This document shows, in pieces, positions 21,792-29,049 of a stretch of 64,000 nt of DNA; position 1 is the first letter of the stretch, and each line of letters starts with the position of its first letter. The DNA is taken from positions 2,401,382 to 2,465,381 of the forward strand of contig NZ_CP019448.1 in the NCBI RefSeq assembly GCF_002951835.1. Direction: 5' to 3'. A model generated the notes under the pieces. It was given only the letters and a program-made list of their open reading frames with translations. It made no database searches and was not told the DNA's origin. Both the position numbers and the translations under genes were made by a program. Source of the stretch: Simonsiella muelleri ATCC 29453. GTDB taxonomy: Bacteria > Pseudomonadota > Gammaproteobacteria > Burkholderiales > Neisseriaceae.

Positions 21792-21958
21792 ATAAAATAA
21801 GTGCGTTTAATTCATCAAAAATTTTGATGGATTAAAGGTGCTTGGTGCTTTTAAGCTGAAACCTTTGCAAAACACCCATATGCAATGCCATCGCTCTGAA
21901 TTGCGCCTAAATTTAGGGCGGAAAAAGGGTTGTTTACTCATATTCCGCACAACCTAAA

Positions 21959-22279
21959 TTAACCACCGTAAGCATTGCCGTCTTTATTGGTAGTATTACC
22001 GTAGTCATTACCGGATTGGTCTTTTTGTTTACTTTCTTGATAACATTCGTAACCAGTAGCAATACCACCACCAACAACACCTGTAGTGCCACCAACTATT
22101 CCACCAAAAGTTACAGTAGCAGGTGCAGACAATCCAGCAGTAAACGCAGAAACCCCTAAACCTACTGCACCACTTAATATCGCACCTGATTGCCCACCAT
22201 TTGCCATACCAGAAAGAGTAGTTGCGATACAACCAGCCCCACTTACAAGATTTAAATCATTTATTGATAATTCAATCAT
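21959..22279 (-). CDS. Gly-rich bacteriocin/microcin-like precursor (colicin V-like)
   Basis: The N-terminus MIELSINDLNLVSGAG fits the double-glycine leader consensus (LS..(E/D)L...(I/V).G(G/A)). The predicted mature part is Gly/Ala-rich with 2 Cys, as in ColV and MccL. The gene lies in an AT-rich segment. Confidence 0.5.
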   Translation of the reverse strand: MIELSINDLNLVSGAGCIATTLSGMANGGQSGAILSGAVGLGVSAFTAGLSAPATVTFGGIVGGTTGVVGGGIATGYECYQESKQKDQSGNDYGNTTNKDGNAYGG

Positions 22280-22308
22280 AATTTTTATCTCCTAATAAAA
22301 TGTTTAGT

Positions 22309-22503
22309 TTAGTGTTTTAAAAAATAAGTTGATATGGTGTAATTTGTTAAAATAAATAAAATCATAAAAGTAAATAATGCTCTACAATAAATTTGCATAT
22401 TAATTGTTGATGAATCACTAAAATACTCAAAAATAAATAATAATGGTGTTACAAGCAATAAAAGAGCATAAAAATATTTACAAAAAATCAAAATTTTAAG
22501 CAT
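22309..22503 (-). CDS. Small hydrophobic membrane protein; candidate immunity protein
   Basis: 64 aa with two predicted transmembrane helices, immediately upstream of and co-oriented with the Gly-rich peptide. This is the cvi-cvaC-like arrangement. Confidence 0.3.
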   Translation of the reverse strand: MLKILIFCKYFYALLLLVTPLLFIFEYFSDSSTINMQIYCRALFTFMILFILTNYTISTYFLKH

Positions 22504-22519
22504 TAAAATTTACTCCATA

Positions 22520-23674
22520 TTATGGCAATATAAACTCCAACACACCAACTATTGCCAACTCAAATATCAATTTATTCATTTTCTCCGAATTGATATTTTG
22601 GTTTTGGCAAAACTCATTCAGTTGACTCAATTCAACATAATGCTGGTCAGCTATCCATTGCAAAATGGTTTGACTGTCGTTATCCAAATTAGTTTTGATA
22701 CCATTGGCAATCACATAACCTTGTGTAATGGTGCGATTGTCCAGTGAATTGAGTTTGATTGTGCCATTTTCGGGAAGTCTGTCGTTGTGTGGATTGCCAA
22801 AAATCTGCATATTGAATGCGGTATCGGCACGGTGATCACCTAAAAACTCCTGTTTAAAGGTTTCGTAGTTTTCACGGTTTACTAATAATTTGGCTATGTT
22901 TTGCGCGGCAACCTGAATGCGATTTTGGTCGCTTTGCCAATTGTTTAAATTGTGGCGCAATTCCACAATGGACGGAACTTTTTTCATCAGCCATTCCATA
23001 TACTGATAGCCTGTTGGCGCAAACGTGCCGATTGCCAAATGGAACGTTTCACAATTCATGGGGACAGGACTATGCCACCAACCACGCGGAATGTATAAAA
23101 TATCGCCAGCTTCTAAAACCACTTCCATATCTGGGTGCTGTGGTTCGGGAACATTCACATCTTTGCTTTGTTGCATATAAAGAGGCATTTCAAAATTGGG
23201 CGCATACAGCGACCAATGCTTTTTGCCCATTAACTGAACCGCAAAGACATCTCGCGTATCCCAATGATTTTTAAATGAAGCATCACTACCAAATGCCAAA
23301 TAACCGCTCACTACAGTTTGAGCTTGCACAAATTGAGCAATGTGTTTGGCAATAGCATCGACCAAAGGCTCATTGTTAATCCGATTATAAACAATCGTTG
23401 CACCCTTGCGTAGATGTTCATAAACCGCAGCTTTATTGAAACGGTAACGAGTTCTGCCTATATCGTTAAAACTTTCCACATATGCCGATACTGGTACAAT
23501 TTCGCCTTTACGCAGACGGAACAATTCATCAACTGGATTGGCACGTTGATACAATTCATTGATATATTGCCAATCTATTGGTACGTCTTTAGCCGCACCT
23601 TTAAACAATTTAGGCTGCTTATACAAAAATTCCTGTCGAAAGTGTTCTGCAGTAATATTCAAATTTAAATACAT
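22520..23674 (-). CDS. JmjC / cupin-4 family 2-oxoglutarate/Fe(II) oxygenase (YcfD/RoxA-like)
   Basis: HxD..H facial triad (HWDTRD ... WWHSP) and an architecture like YcfD. The start at M7 (23674) is preferred for ribosome-binding-site spacing. There is a roughly 100 aa C-terminal extension. Confidence 0.65.
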   Translation of the reverse strand: MYLNLNITAEHFRQEFLYKQPKLFKGAAKDVPIDWQYINELYQRANPVDELFRLRKGEIVPVSAYVESFNDIGRTRYRFNKAAVYEHLRKGATIVYNRINNEPLVDAIAKHIAQFVQAQTVVSGYLAFGSDASFKNHWDTRDVFAVQLMGKKHWSLYAPNFEMPLYMQQSKDVNVPEPQHPDMEVVLEAGDILYIPRGWWHSPVPMNCETFHLAIGTFAPTGYQYMEWLMKKVPSIVELRHNLNNWQSDQNRIQVAAQNIAKLLVNRENYETFKQEFLGDHRADTAFNMQIFGNPHNDRLPENGTIKLNSLDNRTITQGYVIANGIKTNLDNDSQTILQWIADQHYVELSQLNEFCQNQNINSEKMNKLIFELAIVGVLEFILP

Positions 23675-24042
23675 AATGCAAATCTCTATCATTCCTAATT
23701 TTTAAGAAATTTTATTGTTGGATACTTTTCATTTGTCAATACCTTTTAAAAAATAATTTTTAATAAAAGAGATTTTGATTTTTAGGTACATCCATGGTTT
23801 TCTCAAATTTTAAAAATAAAACGGCTCACCCGAAGCACAAACGCACATTCAGAATTAAGCCGTTTTGGAAAGGTGGAATTAAGCCAATGAGTTTTTAGGT
23901 TCATCATTAGTTTAAAATTCAATCAATAAAAATCATTTTTGCACTATAAATTCAAATATTTTATAAAAATATTTAGAAAACATCGGGCGTTGTACAGGTT
24001 TCAGCGGGGGTATGGTGGCGATAAGCGAATCTAAAATTTGGC

Positions 24043-25392: not shown

Positions 25393-25645
25393 TGTTATTC
25401 TCTTTCTTATTGATAATGGGTTTTCAGGCTGCCTGAAAAAGTAGCCATATTCTAACAGAATACTGAATTTAGGCAGCTTGAAAATATTTTTGTGTATTTG
25501 AATTGCTGAACGTGCAGTTCTTCAGGCTGCCTTATTTAATCGGAATAATGAAATTTATAAAAATAATTTTAATTTAAAATCAATACTATTTACTTTTAAG
25601 TTTTTTATGCGTATTATTCTCATTAATGAAATAATTGAATTAATT

Positions 25646-26521
25646 ATGAAAAATAAATTTGTAAACTCAGTTAGTTGGGTTACCTGTACGTCATTGGCTC
25701 ATGCCGACTTGCCATTGAGTTTAGAAGAGCTGCTGACCGACAAAGGCAAACTTAAACTAGAAAGTAGCATCAGCTACGTGAATACAGAACGCAGCCAAAT
25801 GCAATTTGCCAACCCCATTTATGTACAAACCAGTGCAACCAATTTTGTCGCTGTTCCCACAGCCATCAATGAAACCGATAGCAATAGCGATATTGTGGTT
25901 GGCACGGTTGGTTTACGCTACGGTTTGACAGACAAAACCGATATTTACGGTAACACCAACTATTTATGGCGCAGCGACCGACAATTTAACGATTCAGGCA
26001 GCCTGAAAAAACGCAATAACAATTTATCTGATTTTTCGCTGGGCGTGAGCCACACGTTTATGCAAGATGGTAAAAATCCTGCATTAATTGGCTTTTTAGA
26101 AACATTGGTTTATGAAAAATCACAGGATAAAAAATCATTTGGAAAATCGTGGGTAGTTGGTGCGACGACTTACAAAGCGATTGACCCAGTTGTTTTGTCA
26201 TTGACTGCGACGTATCGCCATAATTTGAAGAAAAATATAGATGGGAATTCATATAAATCAGGGAATTATTTTATGCTGAACCCATCTATCAGTTTTGCAG
26301 CAAACGATAAAATTAGCTTAACGGGTGGTGTGCAATGGCTCAATGCACAAGCTGATACACAAAATGGCAAAAAACTGTCTGCTCGTAACACATCAACCTA
26401 CGCTCATGCTGGTATTGGTTATGGCATCACAAAAGATACTGCTTTGAATGCTTCTGTGCGTTGGAAAGCATCAGGGCAAAGCACTTCCGAATTAAAACTT
26501 GGTTTGACCTACAATTTTTAA
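25646..26521 (+). CDS. Putative outer-membrane beta-barrel protein
   Basis: Start moved to MKNKF at 25646. Signal peptide ..SLAHA|DL. Amphipathic strands and a C-terminal ..TYNF. The family is not assigned. There is a DUS inside the coding sequence at about 25993. Confidence 0.5.
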   Translation: MKNKFVNSVSWVTCTSLAHADLPLSLEELLTDKGKLKLESSISYVNTERSQMQFANPIYVQTSATNFVAVPTAINETDSNSDIVVGTVGLRYGLTDKTDIYGNTNYLWRSDRQFNDSGSLKKRNNNLSDFSLGVSHTFMQDGKNPALIGFLETLVYEKSQDKKSFGKSWVVGATTYKAIDPVVLSLTATYRHNLKKNIDGNSYKSGNYFMLNPSISFAANDKISLTGGVQWLNAQADTQNGKKLSARNTSTYAHAGIGYGITKDTALNASVRWKASGQSTSELKLGLTYNF

Positions 26522-26585
26522 GCAGCACCCCAGTAGTAACAGTAGTACTTTCTTTTTTAACTTTCAATATAAGGATTTTTCACTT

Positions 26586-27008
26586 ATGAAAACTAAAATC
26601 GCAACGGTAATTGCTATGGCTATGTTGTCTGCACCTGTGATGGCACAACAGAATTTAAATAGTTTGGATAGCCAAGTATTCGCCAATCAAAATATCAAGG
26701 CAGTGGAATTATCTCAAACTGAGATGAAAGAGACTCAGGGGGAGTGGGTTGCAAATGCGATTGGTGGTGTAATGGGTGGTGTTGGTGGTCATTTTGGTTA
26801 TATGGCAGGTGCTGCTTTGGCTGGCTCATACAACTTTAATGGACATATGGCAGCCATTGGTACTGGTGCAGCTGTTGGGGTTCTTAGTCCTGTTACGGGA
26901 GCAAGTACTTTGGTACATGGTATGAGGGGAGCTGCATTAGCAGGAGTTATTGGTGGTATTAACGGATATGCTGGTAATACTGGTAAAAATCATACTTTCC
27001 GCCGTTAA
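26586..27008 (+). CDS. Bacteriocin-like precursor, cassette 1. It has three modules: a Sec-like signal module, a conserved leader module, and a Gly-rich (glycine-zipper) variable module.
   Basis: MKTKIATVIAMAMLSAPVMA|QQ..., then ELSQTEMKETQGE, then WVANAIGGVMGGVGG.... The 5' 180 bp is duplicated at 27873-28045. The leader segment is duplicated at 27371-27432. There is an alternative GTG start at 26708, preceded by AAGG. Confidence 0.5.
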   Translation: MKTKIATVIAMAMLSAPVMAQQNLNSLDSQVFANQNIKAVELSQTEMKETQGEWVANAIGGVMGGVGGHFGYMAGAALAGSYNFNGHMAAIGTGAAVGVLSPVTGASTLVHGMRGAALAGVIGGINGYAGNTGKNHTFRR

Positions 27009-27086
27009 TTTATTAACTATTTGTAAATAAAATTTGCTACTAAACTAATTAATTAAATAAGTTTAGTAGCTTTCTTAGAGTTTATC

Positions 27087-27371
27087 ATGGTGTTATTATA
27101 TATAATGGCAACGGTTGGGTGCTTTCTAGGTTGCTTGAGAATGATTGAAAATATTGGACGAAAAAAATGGTTAAGTAATATCTTATTTCTTATTTCTACT
27201 TCCATATTAACATTATGTAGTATTGAAATTACTCATATAACCAATATGTTATCGTTCAATGATTCAATAAAGCAATTATTATATTATTTTTCTTATCTAT
27301 TTATTTTGATTTTATTCTTTTATTTTTTAGCGAAATATCTTAATAAAAGTTATAAAGATAAATCATGTTAA
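27087..27371 (+). CDS. Small polytopic membrane protein; candidate immunity protein for cassette 1
   Basis: 94 aa, very hydrophobic, about 25% GC, immediately downstream of the precursor. Confidence 0.35.
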   Translation: MVLLYIMATVGCFLGCLRMIENIGRKKWLSNILFLISTSILTLCSIEITHITNMLSFNDSIKQLLYYFSYLFILILFFYFLAKYLNKSYKDKSC

Positions 27372-27383
27372 AATGTTAAGGCA

Positions 27384-27500
27384 ATGGAATTATCTCAAAC
27401 TGAGATGAAAGAGACTCAGGGGGAAGTTGCTATTAGTTGCAGCAGCTTTGGGTGGCTTTTTTGGCGCAAGTTTGGCAAATACAGCAAGCAATCCTCGTAA
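27384..27500 (+). CDS. Orphan precursor, cassette 2 (38 aa). It starts with the conserved leader (MELSQTEMKETQGE) fused to a different C-terminus. A G5 tract sits at the junction.
   Basis: The ATG is preceded by AAGGCA, which is identical to the GTG context in cassette 1. The frame changes after the CAGGGGGAA tract. The +1 frame encodes KLLLVAAALGGFFGASLANTASNPRK up to 27503. Confidence 0.35.
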   Translation: MELSQTEMKETQGEVAISCSSFGWLFWRKFGKYSKQSS

Positions 27501-27513
27501 ATAATTTATTTTC

Positions 27514-27756
27514 ATGGTAATATATATGAGTGAATTAATTGTCTATTTCATTATTCCTGCGTTGAGTTTTGTTTGCGCAACATTGAGTTATTTAATTGTA
27601 AAATGGAAACAACTAGATAGGAAATATATGTATTTATTTCCTTTATTTCTTATCATTTTTGTTTTCTTAGGGATAGTGGAGTTTTACATGTTTGTTTTCT
27701 TTCTTTGCTCATGTTTTTATTCTATTTACTCATATTATGATCATGATGAAAATTAA
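27514..27756 (+). CDS. Small polytopic membrane protein; candidate immunity protein for cassette 2
   Basis: 80 aa, two to three transmembrane helices, AT-rich. Confidence 0.3.
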   Translation: MVIYMSELIVYFIIPALSFVCATLSYLIVKWKQLDRKYMYLFPLFLIIFVFLGIVEFYMFVFFLCSCFYSIYSYYDHDEN

Positions 27757-27918
27757 GTTTTACTATTAGCTATTAGTAAGTGTCGGGTGGGCAGTTATTG
27801 CCCACTCGTTCTGTGTTTGGTTGCAACAAAAATACCAGTATTTGTTTGGTTTAATTTACAATTTTTAAGTAGTCCCCAGTAGTAACAGCAGTATTTTCTG
27901 ACTATAAAATTTTCACTT

Positions 27919-28194
27919 ATGAAAACTAAAATCGCAACGGTAATCACTATAGCTATGTTGTCTGCACCTGTGATGGCACAACAGAATTTAAATAGTTTGG
28001 ATAGCCAAGTATTTGCTAATCAAAATATAAAGGCAGTGGAAATATTTTTGGGGCTTATTATTATCCCAATAGATTTTGTTATTTATTTAATTATTAAAAA
28101 ATACTTTCCTAAAAATGGGTTAATGATATTTATTCAAACTTTTACATTATCATTAATTAATTTTTTACTTTTGAAGTACATTTTGAAATTTTAA
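27919..28194 (+). CDS. Cassette 3: the same Sec-like 5' module as cassette 1, fused at the GTGGAA breakpoint to a hydrophobic transmembrane peptide
   Basis: The first 40 aa are identical or near-identical to 26586. Divergence falls exactly at the alternative start site. Confidence 0.35.
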   Translation: MKTKIATVITIAMLSAPVMAQQNLNSLDSQVFANQNIKAVEIFLGLIIIPIDFVIYLIIKKYFPKNGLMIFIQTFTLSLINFLLLKYILKF

Positions 28195-28383
28195 AAATAG
28201 ACTTCCGGCGAAACCGCAATTTTTCTAGATTTTAGAATTTTGCTAAATCCTGTAATTAAGCTTGTTTTAAAAAATGGGGATTATTGTTTCGCAGGAAGTC
28301 TACACTTTCTATAGTTTTATCCAAATTCCAACATTCAGGCAGCCTGAAATAGTTTTTGTGTACTGGCTCTTGGAGTAGAAGAA

Positions 28384-29049
28384 ATGATTGATTACGTGAA
28401 TAAAATTATGAAACAATATCTATTTATTTTTATTATATTTTTATCTGCATTCATTCATGCTCAACCACTTTATATAGAAAATCCAATTGTGCATCAAACC
28501 ATTCGCGTAAAAAGCTGGAAAGAAAAACGAGACTTCGGTATTGTGAAACAAGATTTGGATTTTTCCTGTGGTGCGGCTTCGGTTGCTACTTTGCTGAATA
28601 ATTTTTATGGACAAAGTCTGACCGAAGAAACCATATTGAATAAAATGGACAAAACCCAAATGCGAGCATCATTTGAAGATATGCAACGCATTATGCCTGA
28701 ATTGGGTTTCCAAGCTAAAGGCTATGCTTTGCCATTTGAACAATTGATGCAACTGAAAATCCCTGTGATTGTGTATTTGAAATACCGAAAAAATGACCAT
28801 TTTTCCGTTTTGCGTGGTATTAATGAGCATACAATTTTATTGGCAGACCCATCATTAGGTCATGTTTCCATGAGTAAATCTCAATTTTTAGATGCGTGGA
28901 AAACACGTGATGGCGATATGGAAGGAAAAATATTGGCAATTATACCTAAAAAATTAGATATTTCAGAAAATTCAATATTTTTTAATAAAAAACCGATTCG
29001 CCAAACACATTTTGCAGTCAAACAATTGTACATTTGGCAAAAACGTTAA
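28384..29049 (+). CDS. Standalone C39-family (double-glycine leader) peptidase-domain protein with an N-terminal signal/anchor
   Basis: Catalytic Cys motif DLDFSCGAASVATLL and His motif DHFSVLRGINEHTILLADPSLG, as in ComA/CvaB peptidase domains. There is no ABC transporter domain. 221 aa. Confidence 0.7.
   Translation: MIDYVNKIMKQYLFIFIIFLSAFIHAQPLYIENPIVHQTIRVKSWKEKRDFGIVKQDLDFSCGAASVATLLNNFYGQSLTEETILNKMDKTQMRASFEDMQRIMPELGFQAKGYALPFEQLMQLKIPVIVYLKYRKNDHFSVLRGINEHTILLADPSLGHVSMSKSQFLDAWKTRDGDMEGKILAIIPKKLDISENSIFFNKKPIRQTHFAVKQLYIWQKR

What the first reader, a model, noticed from the sequence alone, without database searches (positions are those of the whole stretch)
21959..23692. Colicin V-like Gly-rich peptide with a double-glycine leader, plus a small membrane protein, next to a JmjC/cupin-4 oxygenase
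The 106 aa ORF starts MIELSINDLNLVSGAG (pattern LS..DL..VSG-A/G). It continues as a Gly/Ala-rich sequence with two Cys. This is the architecture of class IIa microcins such as ColV. A 64 aa two-helix membrane protein sits directly upstream in the same orientation, in the position cvi holds relative to cvaC. The next gene upstream is a JmjC-domain oxygenase with an HxD...H triad and a roughly 100 aa C-terminal extension. The AT-rich peptide and immunity segment contrasts with its flanks. The window contains no CvaAB-type exporter. The oxygenase could be a RiPP-tailoring hydroxylase, or simply the housekeeping YcfD/RoxA ribosomal hydroxylase.
Basis: partly seen in the sequence, partly recalled or inferred. 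Interest (0 to 1): 0.7.

Follow-up and report, generated by a model that had tools for sequence, protein, structure and literature searches.

The report
Exporter-less cupin-linked microcin gene trio
This is a chromosomal, exporter-less copy in the oral bacterium Simonsiella muelleri of a recently described antibacterial peptide system (peptide, immunity protein, JmjC/cupin enzyme). Comparing about 80 related loci points to a short conserved tag on the peptide as the enzyme's likely target.

Summary
On the minus strand sit a JmjC/cupin gene (22520-23674), a 64-aa two-helix membrane ORF (22309-22503) and a 106-aa Gly-rich peptide (21959-22279) with a canonical 15-aa double-glycine leader.

The window is Simonsiella muelleri ATCC 29453. 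The JmjC protein is not RoxA/YcfD. It has the ribosomal-oxygenase fold at only 14-17% identity. Of 66 genome loci with homologues at 35% identity or more, 63 carry a C39-ABC exporter, an MFP or a double-glycine peptide beside it.

This matches the A. baumannii mca system (Mcc17978/MccAB1). There the cupin McaB is required for killing but not secretion, a small unannotated ORF gives immunity, and the cupin's chemistry is unknown.

New here: the otherwise diverse peptides share a tag, D-x-[ASD]-G-[TN]-[ND]-Y, usually at the C-terminus (two copies in the window). The His-x-Asp...His triad is invariant. The enzyme's C-terminal domain looks like a RiPP recognition element. I infer leader-guided hydroxylation of the tag.

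In S. muelleri the exporter genes are gone, leaving about 11 codons of the MFP. Other strains carry nonsense alleles of the JmjC gene while the immunity gene is unchanged. The locus is probably a decaying remnant kept for immunity. It is a new member of a known kind.

The parts
22520..23674 (-). JmjC/cupin 2-oxoglutarate/Fe(II) oxygenase, 384 aa, McaB-like. The ORF extends to an upstream in-frame ATG at 23692. [quoted passage not shown]
   Evidence: - Pfam JmjC_2 E=1.3e-30.
- H143, D145 and H207 are invariant in 76/76 homologues and K158 in 75/76, in 390-aa numbering.
- AF2 model pLDDT 88.9. The best PDB folds are the ribosomal oxygenases YcfD, NO66 and MINA53 at 14-17% identity.
- 42% identical (E=1.6e-118) to the A. 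baumannii cupin in a microcin-cupin-MFP-PCAT locus.
- Annotated in GenBank as AUX62454.1, 'cupin-like domain-containing protein'.
22309..22503 (-). 64-aa two-transmembrane-segment protein, the probable immunity protein (McaI-like).
   Evidence: - Two hydrophobic segments.
- Homologous 65- and 69-aa ORFs occupy the same position in L086 and L002 (38% and 28% identity, shared N-terminus MLKILxFCKYxY).
- 100% identical in four other S. muelleri contigs.
- The analogous small unannotated 2-TM ORF is the proven immunity protein in A. baumannii (PMC13188072).
21959..22279 (-). 106-aa microcin precursor. It has a 15-aa double-glycine leader, a Gly/Ala-rich hydrophobic core bracketed by Cys17 and Cys79, and a hydrophilic acidic tail carrying two tag motifs. 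The mature peptide would be 91 aa, 8.6 kDa, pI 4.4.
   Evidence: Homologues are P0001-P0003 and the L086 peptide. GenBank accession numbering suggests the gene is not annotated there (inference).
22235..22279 (-). Double-glycine leader MIELSINDLNLVSGA. Predicted cleavage is after Gly14-Ala15.
   Evidence: It matches the family leader M-x-E-L-x-x-x-[ED]-[LM]-x-x-V-S-G-[GA], seen in about 65 peptides next to JmjC homologues. Hydrophobic residues sit at -4, -7 and -12, read directly from the sequence.
22001..22015 (-). Tag motif copy 1: S-G-N-D-Y, residues 89-93 (context KDQSGNDYG).
   Evidence: The family-wide motif occurs in 55/64 peptides, against 17.1±3.4 in shuffled sequences (maximum 29 in 2000 shuffles). 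Of 90 instances, 74 lie within 16 aa of the C-terminus.
21968..21982 (-). Tag motif copy 2: D-G-N-A-Y, residues 100-104 (context NKDGNAYGG, at the C-terminus).
   Evidence: Two copies at the extreme C-terminus is the commonest arrangement (27 of 64 peptides have two copies).
21909..21941 (-). Remnant of the 5' end of the MFP (HlyD/CvaA-type) exporter gene: MSKQPFFRPKF..., after which similarity is lost. The rest of the MFP gene and the C39-ABC gene are absent.
   Evidence: MFP N-termini in related loci read M..SFFRPEV / M..LFRQEV. L002 has the same kind of stump, MSSNPSFFRPEVLAAKK. tblastn with PCAT and MFP queries finds nothing else in the 64-kb window.
23709..23739 (-). Candidate sigma-70 promoter upstream of the JmjC gene. 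TTGACA lies at 23739-23734, followed by AATAAA or TAAAAT 17-19 nt downstream.
   Evidence: Read directly from the sequence. The consensus scan did not report it. Weak evidence only.

Best explanation
The three genes are a chromosomal module of the cupin-associated (Mca-type) class II microcin family in Simonsiella muelleri.

How the complete system works in relatives:
1. The precursor is made with a 15-aa double-glycine leader.
2. A dedicated JmjC/cupin Fe(II)/2-oxoglutarate oxygenase acts on it in the cytoplasm. I infer that its C-terminal RRE-like winged-helix domain holds the precursor. I also infer that the JmjC domain hydroxylates a residue of the conserved tag D-x-[ASD]-G-[TN]-[ND]-Y.
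3. A C39-peptidase ABC transporter plus an MFP removes the leader and exports the peptide.
4. The tag-bearing tail mediates uptake through a TonB-dependent catecholate-siderophore receptor of the target cell.
5. The Gly-rich core damages the inner membrane.
6. The small two-helix membrane protein protects the producer.

In S. muelleri the MFP and ABC genes have been deleted, so the peptide probably cannot be exported by a cognate system. The JmjC gene is decaying in the population while the immunity gene is strictly conserved. The locus is therefore most likely a remnant retained for immunity against related microcins.

What is shown and what is inferred:
- Shown here: gene content, homology, co-occurrence, the tag, catalytic-residue conservation, loss of the exporter, and the nonsense alleles.
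- Shown by others: the cupin is needed for killing but not secretion, the small ORF gives immunity, and FepA/Fiu is the receptor.
- Inferred: the enzyme's substrate site, the chemistry, and the role of the RRE-like domain.
For: - **Organism:** exact protein matches to S. muelleri ATCC 29453.
- **Co-occurrence:** 61 of 80 JmjC-anchored genome loci carry a about 695-aa C39-ABC gene and 55 an MFP gene. These are nearly always adjacent and co-oriented. At 35% JmjC identity or more, 63/66 loci have a PCAT, MFP or GG peptide. Below 35% only 5/14 do.
- **Closest relatives:** JmjC proteins 82-83% identical sit on Rep3/Mob_Pre plasmid-like contigs in the order JmjC, immunity, peptide, MFP, PCAT. The L086 peptide and immunity protein are homologous to the window's.
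- **Other members:** N. meningitidis has JmjC, two GG peptides ending ..SGNDYGDGTGY, PCAT and MFP. A. baumannii has a TM ORF, a GG peptide ending ..AGNDYCEDGGNY, a cupin 42% identical to the window's, MFP and PCAT.
- **Published genetics:** PMC10333792 and PMC13188072.
- **Tag statistics:**
- **Catalytic triad:** invariant in 76/76 homologues.
- **Fold:** ribosomal-oxygenase fold.
[quoted passage not shown] Top structural neighbours include the RRE-bearing RiPP enzymes TbtB, MadB, MibB, LynD, McbBCD and PbtF. PMC12710340 reports RRE-like domains fused to PF08007 JmjC domains.
- **Precedent:** the JmjC hydroxylase BipG acts on a RiPP (PMC12707348).
- **Exporter loss:**. No S. muelleri PCAT appears among the 120 best relatives of the family's PCAT, down to 56% identity.
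- **JmjC decay:** Q20* and E238* alleles in other S. muelleri contigs, with an identical immunity gene.
Against: - No chemistry was tested. A mass shift on any of these peptides has not been reported in the papers I could search.
- The residues most likely to be hydroxylated by analogy, Asn or Asp at tag position 4, are not invariant. Only Gly and Tyr are.
- Nine of 64 peptides next to JmjC genes lack the tag.
- The RRE-like matches have non-significant E-values (0.1-5).
- I could not obtain the McaB sequence of strain 17978 itself. The A. baumannii allele I fetched does not match that paper's primers. The link therefore rests on identical gene organisation and annotation in the same species.
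- The JmjC, immunity and peptide ORFs are all intact in the strain of this window. An exporter elsewhere in the genome or on a plasmid cannot be excluded.
- The MFP remnant is only about 11 codons long.
Confidence: 0.72

Rival explanations
1. The JmjC gene is the housekeeping ribosomal oxygenase RoxA/YcfD (uL16 Arg81 hydroxylase) and merely happens to lie next to a bacteriocin pair.
For: It has the same three-domain ribosomal-oxygenase fold. There is a weak Pfam ROXA-like winged-helix match (E=7e-4, below the cut-off).
Against: - phmmer against RoxA gives E about 1e-3 (21 bits), weaker than against NO66 (1e-9).
- Structure-based identity is 14-15%.
- No NCBIfam model matches.
- Homologues are found on plasmids and in PCAT/MFP/GG-peptide clusters in 63/66 loci.
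- There is no shared housekeeping synteny.
- Nonsense alleles are common within the species.
Confidence: 0.02
2. The cupin/JmjC protein is the immunity protein, as first proposed for McaB, and the 64-aa ORF is irrelevant.
For: PMC10333792 reported protection from a plasmid carrying mcaB.
Against: - PMC13188072 showed that McaB alone does not protect. The small unannotated 2-TM ORF McaI does, and the mcaB deletion is viable but non-killing.
- Here the catalytic triad is invariant across the family, which an immunity-only role would not require.
- In S. muelleri the JmjC gene accumulates stop codons while the 64-aa ORF is invariant.
Confidence: 0.04
3. The JmjC protein is required for activity but does not modify the peptide tag. 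It might modify another site or another protein (exporter, receptor, target). It might instead act as a non-catalytic chaperone that keeps the aggregation-prone Gly-rich peptide in an active form.
For: - No modification has been demonstrated.
- The authors of PMC13188072 suggest that an interaction between cupin and microcin might be needed.
- MccAB1 is amyloidogenic.
- Tag positions 3-4 vary.
Against: - Invariant Fe(II) ligands and the 2OG-binding Lys argue for catalysis.
- The tag is the only element besides the leader shared by otherwise unrelated peptides across more than 10 genera. It moves with the peptide, either C-terminal or right after the leader.
- McbC, the one characterised neighbour peptide without the tag, sits next to a frameshifted cupin gene and is still active (PMC2761928).
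Confidence: 0.15
4. The peptide is not primarily a toxin. It could be a secreted structural or signalling peptide (biofilm amyloid or pheromone), as suggested for MccAB1 in biofilms and for the meningococcal GG peptides.
For: - MccAB1 promotes biofilm independently of killing and of the cupin (PMC13188072).
- NeMeSys raised a pheromone role (PMC2784325).
- The window peptide has a Gly/Ala/Val-rich core.
Against: - A dedicated immunity-type membrane protein is always paired with each peptide variant.
- Cassettes are polymorphic and swap, with JmjC 3' remnants between cassettes in L002, L007 and L015. This is typical of antagonistic toxin-immunity systems.
- Without an exporter, neither role is available in S. 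muelleri.
Confidence: 0.07

Closest known systems
Acinetobacter baumannii mca locus: mcaA (Mcc17978 / MccAB1), mcaI, mcaB (cupin), mcaC (MFP), mcaD (PCAT). PMC10333792 (2023) and PMC13188072 (2026).
   Same: - The gene set matches: a GG-leader Gly-rich microcin, a small unannotated 2-TM immunity ORF, and a about 45-kDa cupin/JmjC protein.
- A. baumannii loci of this layout have a cupin 42% identical to the window's.
- Their peptides end in the same tag, AGNDYCEDGGNY. PMC13188072 notes that 11 A. baumannii microcins share their last 12-14 residues.
   Different: - The gene order differs. A. baumannii has peptide then cupin; here it is cupin, immunity, peptide.
- The peptide cores are unrelated.
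- The S. muelleri copy has lost mcaC and mcaD and shows pseudogenisation of the cupin in other strains.
- Identity to McaB of strain 17978 itself was not verified.
Neisseria meningitidis 'bacteriocin/pheromone secretion' genomic island: C39-ABC, MFP and GG-leader Gly-rich polypeptides (NeMeSys, PMC2784325).
   Same: It is in the same bacterial family, Neisseriaceae. The meningococcal JmjC protein is 56-57% identical. It sits directly upstream of two GG peptides ending SGNDYGDGTGY, a multi-TM ORF, a PCAT and an MFP.
   Different: The meningococcal island keeps its exporter. The JmjC gene and the tag were not discussed in that paper.
Moraxella catarrhalis mcbABCI on plasmid pLQ510 (PMC2761928).
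   Same: It is a plasmid-borne MFP, PCAT, GG-bacteriocin and immunity cluster. A homologue of the window's JmjC (66% identity) lies immediately upstream of mcbA.
   Different: In pLQ510 the cupin gene is frameshifted and fused to a microcin 3' remnant. McbC lacks the tag yet is active. It therefore looks like a cupin-independent derivative.
E. coli Mcc1229: mctA, mctB (ABC), mctC (cupin), DUF proteins (PMC8853679).
   Same: It is a microcin cluster in which a cupin gene is required for activity. Uptake goes through a catecholate receptor (CirA/TonB) and the cluster is under Fur/iron control. MctC is a distant homologue, 24% identical over the JmjC core.
   Different: The cupin is shorter (298 aa, apparently without the winged-helix domain). 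The precursor is different (about 232 aa, Cys-rich). The ABC protein has no annotated C39 domain. The immunity proteins belong to DUF families.
Ribosomal oxygenases RoxA/YcfD, NO66 and MINA53.
   Same: They share the three-domain fold (JmjC, helical linker, winged helix), the HxD...H triad and the 2OG-binding Lys. All known members hydroxylate the C3 position of a side chain in a protein loop.
   Different: Identity is only 14-17%. The genomic context is different and the inferred substrate is a secreted peptide, not a ribosomal protein.
Class IIb (siderophore-) microcins MccE492, H47 and M; and BipG, the JmjC ornithine hydroxylase of biphenomycin (PMC12707348).
   Same: The class IIb microcins show the same logic: a C-terminal tail is enzymatically modified to exploit catecholate-siderophore receptors. 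BipG is the precedent for a JmjC enzyme tailoring a ribosomal peptide.
   Different: The window has no Ser-rich tail and no glycosyltransferase or esterase genes for siderophore attachment. The biphenomycin cluster is otherwise unrelated.

Membership tests
Class II microcin (Gram-negative double-glycine bacteriocin) | N-terminal 15-19 aa leader ending in GG, GA or GS, with hydrophobic residues at -4, -7 and -12 | tested here: met
   MIELSINDLNLVSGA|G. It aligns with about 65 leaders in related loci.
Class II microcin (Gram-negative double-glycine bacteriocin) | Mature ribosomal peptide below 10 kDa | tested here: met
   91 aa, 8.6 kDa.
Class II microcin (Gram-negative double-glycine bacteriocin) | Small membrane immunity gene adjacent to the peptide gene | tested here: met
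   The 64-aa ORF has two hydrophobic segments. It is conserved in position and sequence in L086 and L002. The immunity function itself cannot be tested here.
Class II microcin (Gram-negative double-glycine bacteriocin) | Dedicated C39-peptidase ABC transporter and MFP in the cluster | tested here: not met
   Neither is present in the 64-kb window. Only an about 11-codon stump of the MFP gene remains. Both genes are present in homologous loci.
Class II microcin (Gram-negative double-glycine bacteriocin) | Antibacterial activity of the secreted peptide | not testable with these tools
   Needs expression and killing assays.
Mca-type cupin-dependent microcin (MccAB1/Mcc17978) | A cupin/JmjC gene of about 45 kDa adjacent to the microcin gene and homologous to the Acinetobacter cupin | tested here: met
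   384 aa. It is 42% identical (E=1.6e-118) to the cupin in A. baumannii microcin-cupin-MFP-PCAT loci. The 17978 allele itself was not obtained.
Mca-type cupin-dependent microcin (MccAB1/Mcc17978) | Shared C-terminal tail of about 12-14 residues among otherwise dissimilar peptides | tested here: met
   The window tail is SGNDYGNTTNKDGNAYGG and the A. baumannii tail is AGNDYCEDGGNY.
Mca-type cupin-dependent microcin (MccAB1/Mcc17978) | Cupin required for killing but not for secretion | not testable with these tools
   Genetic result from PMC13188072 only.
Colicin V / MccV family (Pfam PF17508) | Score at or above the Pfam gathering threshold (27 bits) | tested here: not met
   15.9 bits, E=0.02, covering residues 1-49 only. 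BLASTP against CvaC finds no alignment.
RoxA/YcfD ribosomal oxygenase orthologue | Three-domain ribosomal-oxygenase fold with an HxD...H triad | tested here: met
   Foldseek top hits are 4csw, 4ccl and NO66 (E about 1e-17).
RoxA/YcfD ribosomal oxygenase orthologue | Sequence-level orthology to RoxA | tested here: not met
   phmmer E=1.2e-3 to 2e-3, weaker than to NO66 or MINA53. Identity is 14-15%.
RoxA/YcfD ribosomal oxygenase orthologue | Housekeeping context independent of bacteriocin genes | tested here: not met
   63/66 loci are linked to a PCAT, MFP or GG peptide. The gene is plasmid-borne in its closest relatives.
Class IIb siderophore-microcin | Ser/Gly-rich C-terminal tail plus genes for siderophore attachment (mchA/C/D or mceC/I/J type) | tested here: not met
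   The tail is N/D/Y/G/K-rich and ends ..DGNAYGG. The neighbouring genes are a DEAD helicase, a glycine transporter, an LMW phosphatase and RNase HII.
RiPP with leader-guided tailoring | [quoted passage not shown] | tested here: inconclusive
   The C-terminal domain model (pLDDT 85) has the RRE order of elements. Its best neighbours include TbtB, MadB, MibB, LynD, McbBCD and PbtF, but E-values are 0.1-5, and the YcfD winged helix scores similarly.
RiPP with leader-guided tailoring | Demonstrated post-translational modification of the core peptide | not testable with these tools
   Needs mass spectrometry.

The most novel reading that the evidence does not exclude
These would form a third kind of class II microcin.

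- A dedicated ribosomal-oxygenase-like JmjC enzyme, guided by an RRE-like domain, hydroxylates the conserved D-x-[ASD]-G-[TN]-[ND]-Y tag. The product could be beta-hydroxy-Asn/Asp, or a hydroxylated Tyr such as a DOPA-like catechol.
- Two tag copies per tail would make a built-in Fe(III)-binding siderophore mimic.
- This mimic would be what the catecholate receptors (FepA/PfeA, Fiu, CirA) recognise. It would be a Trojan horse made without attaching any siderophore.

This reading would explain three published observations:
- The cupin is needed for killing but not secretion.
- Recombinant peptide purified without the cupin's action is inactive.
- The systems are induced by iron limitation.
Probability: 0.2. 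Interest if true: 0.8.

Novelty: new member of a known kind. Interest (0 to 1): 0.5.

Why it matters
Cupin-associated class II microcins were recognised only recently, and the 2026 study states that the cupin's function is unknown.

What the comparison here adds:
- The association is family-wide. It covers Neisseriaceae, Moraxellaceae, Pseudomonas and relatives, Marinomonas, Burkholderiales and Xanthomonas, with 234 representative clusters at E≤1e-30.
- The enzyme is identified as a catalytically intact paralogue of the ribosomal oxygenases, with an RRE-like domain.
- A short portable tag is pinpointed as the probable substrate.

Together these turn the open question into a one-week experiment: look for a +16 Da shift on a defined peptide fragment, then mutate the tag.

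It also flags that the meningococcal and gonococcal bacteriocin islands carry this enzyme. Genome-mining pipelines that treat such peptides as unmodified class IIa microcins, and test them without the cupin, may score false negatives.

The S. muelleri locus itself illustrates how such weapons decay into immunity-only remnants.

Tried and rejected
- **ColV homology:** rejected. Pfam MccV is below threshold and BLASTP finds no alignment.
- **NCBIfam names:** no model exists for the peptide, the immunity protein or the JmjC protein, nor for homologues from Pseudomonas or Neisseria.
- **Prior description by Iyer/Aravind 2010 (PMC2938197):** their survey of JmjC gene neighbourhoods does not mention PCAT or double-glycine peptide contexts.
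- **The nap island (PMC11798529) as the explanation:** it contains no JmjC gene. It resembles the separate neighbouring locus at 25.6-29.0 kb instead.
- **Synteny of the window's flanks in relatives:** none of 18 related loci has the DEAD helicase or the glycine transporter next to the JmjC gene. S. muelleri's own genome did not come back from the genome collection scan.
- **Linking to strain 17978 by primer sequences:** there is no match in any fetched locus. The supplements hold no microcin or McaB sequence as text.
- **A PCAT elsewhere in S. muelleri:** I could only test this indirectly.
- **Fur box:** the best match near the operon is 14/19 to the E. coli consensus, at 23672-23690 over the JmjC start. 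It is one of six such matches in the window, which is too weak to claim.
- **Promoter and terminator scan:** nothing above the shuffled background.
- **Enzyme-peptide complex model:** not attempted, because fusion constructs are not accepted by the structure tool.


Full report
**1. What is in the sequence**

Three co-oriented ORFs lie on the minus strand, separated by 16 and 29 nt.
- A JmjC ORF at 22520-23692. The start is more probably the ATG at 23674, giving 384 aa, as in all homologues and in GenBank.
- A 64-aa ORF at 22309-22503 with two hydrophobic segments.
- A 106-aa ORF at 21959-22279.

Both small ORFs have Shine-Dalgarno-like sequences.

The peptide starts MIELSINDLNLVSGA|G. This is a canonical 15-residue double-glycine leader with hydrophobic residues at -4, -7 and -12. 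The predicted mature peptide is 91 aa, 8.6 kDa and pI 4.4, with 25% Gly. Its hydrophobic Gly/Ala core is bracketed by Cys17 and Cys79. Its hydrophilic tail reads ...QESKQKDQSGNDYGNTTNKDGNAYGG.

Only the immunity ORF is strongly AT-rich (19.7% GC). The peptide gene is 43.7% GC.

Pfam places the large protein in JmjC_2 (E=1.3e-30), with a sub-threshold ROXA-like winged-helix match. The peptide has only a sub-threshold MccV match (15.9 bits against a cut-off of 27). NCBIfam has nothing for any of the three.

**2. Organism and annotation**

Exact-sequence look-ups identify the window as Simonsiella muelleri ATCC 29453, a member of the Neisseriaceae from the human mouth. RNase HII is AUX62450.1, the JmjC protein is AUX62454.1 ('cupin-like domain-containing protein') and the 64-aa ORF is AUX62453.1. 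The accession numbering leaves no slot for the 106-aa peptide, so it appears to be unannotated there. That is an inference.

**3. The peptide is a real, conserved gene, but rare**

A search of 5.8 billion proteins found only three relatives. Two are S. muelleri variants. The third, P0003, gave 60% identity in BLASTP's local alignment.

The P0003 contig (L002) and a plasmid-like contig (L086) both carry the series JmjC 3' end, homologous 65-69-aa membrane ORF, homologous peptide. In global alignment these peptides are 50-54% identical to the window's. Leader, both Cys and the ..KSGNNYGH tail are conserved.

**4. The JmjC gene belongs to the bacteriocin cluster and is not RoxA**

Homologues of the JmjC protein number 347 at E≤1e-5. 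They are concentrated in Moraxella and Neisseria, including N. meningitidis and N. gonorrhoeae at 50-57% identity. They are named only 'cupin' or 'JmjC domain-containing'.

I fetched 80 genome loci anchored on JmjC relatives.
- A strict leader regex found double-glycine peptides on the JmjC strand directly beside the gene in most of them.
- Clustering all ORFs showed that the two families most often co-located with the JmjC gene are an about 695-aa C39-peptidase ABC transporter (61 loci) and an about 426-aa HlyD-type MFP (55 loci).
- For JmjC identity of 35% or more, 63 of 66 loci have at least one of PCAT, MFP or GG peptide. Below 35%, only 5 of 14 do. The family therefore has a recognisable boundary.

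Two layouts recur.
- MFP ... peptide, JmjC, ABC: Pseudomonas, Stutzerimonas, Marinomonas, Thauera and others.
- JmjC, (immunity/peptide cassettes), MFP, ABC: Moraxella and Neisseria.

The closest JmjC proteins (82-83% identity) are on about 10-kb contigs with Rep3 and Mob_Pre genes. Their order is JmjC, immunity, peptide, MFP, PCAT.

Against solved structures by sequence, the protein matches NO66/MINA53 (E about 1e-9) better than RoxA/YcfD (E about 1e-3). An AlphaFold model (pLDDT 88.9, pTM 0.85) superposes over its full length on YcfD-like, NO66 and MINA53 ribosomal oxygenases at 14-17% identity. It is a paralogue with the ribosomal-oxygenase fold, not an orthologue.

H143, D145 and H207 are invariant in 76 of 76 full-length homologues, and the 2OG-binding K158 in 75 of 76, in 390-aa numbering. 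A profile search of 1.84 billion representative proteins finds 234 clusters at E≤1e-30.

**5. This is a known kind of system**

Full-text searches retrieved the following.
- The A. baumannii 17978 mcaABCD locus: microcin Mcc17978, 'cupin-like' McaB, HlyD and a SunT-type PCAT. It is induced by iron limitation, and resistance in E. coli maps to fiu (PMC10333792).
- The 2026 follow-up (PMC13188072). It shows that:
  - a small unannotated two-TM ORF (McaI), not the cupin, is the immunity protein;
  - deleting the cupin abolishes killing without affecting secretion or biofilm promotion;
  - eleven A. baumannii microcins share their first 15 and last 12-14 residues;
  - the receptor is FepA/PfeA;
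  - the cupin's function is undetermined.
- E. coli Mcc1229, which likewise needs a cupin (MctC), uses CirA/TonB and is Fur-regulated (PMC8853679).

I confirmed the following.
- A. baumannii plasmid and chromosomal loci have the order TM ORF, GG peptide (...AGNDYCEDGGNY), cupin, MFP, PCAT. Their cupin is 42% identical to the window's over its full length.
- The E. coli about 7.9-kb plasmids carry mctA, mctB and mctC. MctC is a distant homologue, 24% identical over the JmjC core.
- M. catarrhalis pLQ510, the mcbABCI plasmid of PMC2761928, has a 66%-identical but frameshifted cupin gene immediately upstream of mcbA.
- The N. meningitidis island has JmjC, two GG peptides, a PCAT and an MFP. These are the Gly-rich GG polypeptides noted in NeMeSys (PMC2784325).

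I could not obtain the 17978 McaB sequence. The published primers do not match the A. baumannii allele I fetched. That single link therefore rests on organisation and annotation rather than on an alignment.

**6. What the comparison adds: a portable tag**

The peptides next to JmjC genes are very diverse in their cores. They share, besides the leader, a short motif with the consensus D-x-[ASD]-G-[TN]-[ND]-Y-[GNC]. Examples:

| Organism | Tail |
|---|---|
| Pseudomonas type | AGTDYNNAAGTNYN |
| Neisseria | SGNDYCDDGTDY, SGNDYGDGTGY |
| Acinetobacter | DGNDYCRDGGNY |
| Window | SGNDYGNTTNKDGNAYGG |

With a loose regex, 55 of 64 peptides carry the motif. Shuffled sequences give 17.1±3.4, with a maximum of 29 in 2000 shuffles. 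Of 90 instances, 74 lie within 16 residues of the C-terminus. Twelve lie immediately after the leader, in a Moraxella group beginning MFELSIEQIKMVSGGAADQSGNDYGDS.... Gly and Tyr define the search pattern; a few near-variants fall outside it. The two positions between them are mostly T/N and N/D.

McbC is the one characterised peptide in this neighbourhood that lacks the tag. It sits beside a broken cupin gene and is nevertheless active (PMC2761928).

The tag is therefore the best candidate for what the enzyme recognises or modifies. It coincides with the 'shared C-terminal 12-14 residues' that PMC13188072 attributed to receptor binding.

**7. An RRE-like domain**

Searched alone (model pLDDT 85), this domain's best neighbours mix two groups. 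One is the YcfD winged helix. The other is the leader-binding regions of RiPP enzymes: TbtB (prob 0.97, TM 0.64), MadB, MibB, LynD, McbBCD, TigE and PbtF-RRE. E-values are 0.1-5, so this is suggestive only.

It agrees with the remark in PMC12710340 that RRE-like domains are fused to PF08007 JmjC domains and that bacterial homologues sit in RiPP-like contexts. BipG of biphenomycin is a precedent for a JmjC hydroxylase acting on a ribosomal peptide (PMC12707348).

**8. Proposed mechanism**

The shown steps are those in sections 1-7. The inferred steps are these.
1. The RRE-like domain binds the precursor in the cytoplasm.
2. The JmjC domain hydroxylates a tag residue. All characterised enzymes of this fold make C3-hydroxylated side chains, which is established knowledge of the ROX/JmjC hydroxylases.
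3. The PCAT then removes the leader and exports the peptide.
4. The modified tail is what the TonB-dependent catecholate receptor accepts.

This accounts for 'needed for killing, not for secretion'.

Which residue is modified is open. Asn or Asp would fit the FIH precedent but varies between peptides. Tyr is present in every instance of the motif. No paper in the searchable library reports the chemistry.

**9. State of the locus in S. muelleri**

The 64-kb window has no PCAT or MFP gene. Only the stand-alone C39 peptidase at 28384-29049 weakly matches the C39 domain.

Eighteen nucleotides after the peptide's stop codon the sequence encodes MSKQPFFRPKF.... This matches the N-termini of the family's MFPs (M..SFFRPEV), and similarity ends after it. 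L002 has a similar stump followed by a duplicated JmjC 3' fragment and a second immunity/peptide cassette. JmjC 3' fragments also separate cassettes in L007 and L015. The locus evidently evolves by recombination at these conserved flanks, and in S. muelleri the exporter genes were deleted.

A search with the closest PCAT returned Kingella, Neisseria, Uruburuella, Conchiformibius and Acinetobacter proteins down to 56% identity, but none from S. muelleri. This is weak negative evidence.

Other S. muelleri contigs carry independent nonsense mutations in the JmjC gene.
- Q20*: the 362-aa gene calls, on more than 50 contigs.
- E238*: the 237-aa calls, on more than 30 contigs.

In those same contigs the immunity ORF is identical at every nucleotide and the peptide differs by one residue.

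The most economical reading is a plasmid-derived module that lost its exporter. Its tailoring enzyme is now dispensable, and its immunity gene is what selection retains. All three ORFs are intact in the strain of this window. Export in trans by a plasmid-borne T1SS cannot be excluded.

**10. Verdict**

The feature is a new and degenerate member of a kind described in 2023-2026, so its novelty is modest.

Its value lies in what the comparison exposes: family-wide linkage of a ribosomal-oxygenase-like JmjC enzyme to double-glycine peptides, a defined candidate substrate tag, and a concrete test for a question the field has declared open.

Noticed in passing
window 25607-29049 (+ strand): A second, separate peptide-secretion locus with the layout of the Neisseria nap island / Pseudomonas Fap system.

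- A 304-aa OMP beta-barrel (25607-26521).
- A 140-aa protein (26586-27008) with a Sec signal, an internal leader-like AVELSQTEMKETQGE and a Gly-rich region.
- TM ORFs of 94 aa (27087-27371) and 80 aa (27514-27756).
- An orphan 38-aa ORF starting MELSQTEMKETQGE (27384-27500).
- A second copy of the signal plus leader, fused to a TM tail (27919-28194).
- A signal-anchored stand-alone C39 peptidase (28384-29049, Pfam E=5e-24). It is 74% identical to a gonococcal stand-alone C39, probably NapP, which I did not verify.

Direct repeats suggest displaced toxin modules: 26577-26712 matches 27910-28045, and 26689-26743 matches 27370-27424, both at 95%.
   Followed up: partly
L001 and L089-L091 (other S. 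muelleri contigs), equivalent to window 22520-23674: There are independent nonsense alleles of the JmjC gene in the species. Q20* corresponds to a C-to-T change at window position 23617, and E238* to a G-to-T change at 22963. The adjacent immunity ORF is 100% identical and the peptide differs by one residue.
   Followed up: yes
L002 1-1737; L007 4135-4353; L015 7429-7647: Fragments of the JmjC 3' end (residues about 315-389) are repeated between successive immunity/peptide cassettes. In L002 a stump of the MFP start precedes the fragment. This is an orphan-cassette architecture like that of polymorphic toxin loci, and implies cassette exchange by recombination at conserved flanks.
   Followed up: partly
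L087 (M. catarrhalis pLQ510) 39-1120: The cupin gene upstream of mcbA is split. Its second ORF ends with a tail (...IENSPIIKEAMQMYQKTQEVNRQMGIILP) resembling the C-terminus of a Moraxella microcin (the L006 peptide). This indicates a deletion that fused the cupin gene to a microcin 3' end. McbC itself lacks the G-x-x-Y tag.
   Followed up: partly
window 23672-23690: CATAATGCAAATCTCTATC matches the E. coli Fur-box consensus at 14/19 positions and overlaps the JmjC start codon. It is one of only six 14/19 matches in the 64-kb window. The Acinetobacter and E. coli relatives are iron/Fur-regulated. The match is too weak to call.
   Followed up: partly
window 21959-22279: The 106-aa microcin gene appears to be missing from the GenBank annotation of S. 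muelleri ATCC 29453, because the accession numbers of its neighbours are consecutive. Its exact sequence was not among the database hits; only a 99% variant from metagenomes was.
   Followed up: no
L003 4595-7137: One Moraxella MAG carries two tandem JmjC paralogues (39% and 63% identical to the window's). At least five double-glycine peptides surround them, some with and some without the tag.
   Followed up: no
one search hit list (PLSDB): Seventy-four Streptomyces plasmid records carry cupin genes 24-33% identical to the JmjC core. Two 2.17-Mb N. gonorrhoeae chromosomes are filed as plasmids in PLSDB, with the JmjC and C39 genes unannotated in the PLSDB table.
   Followed up: no
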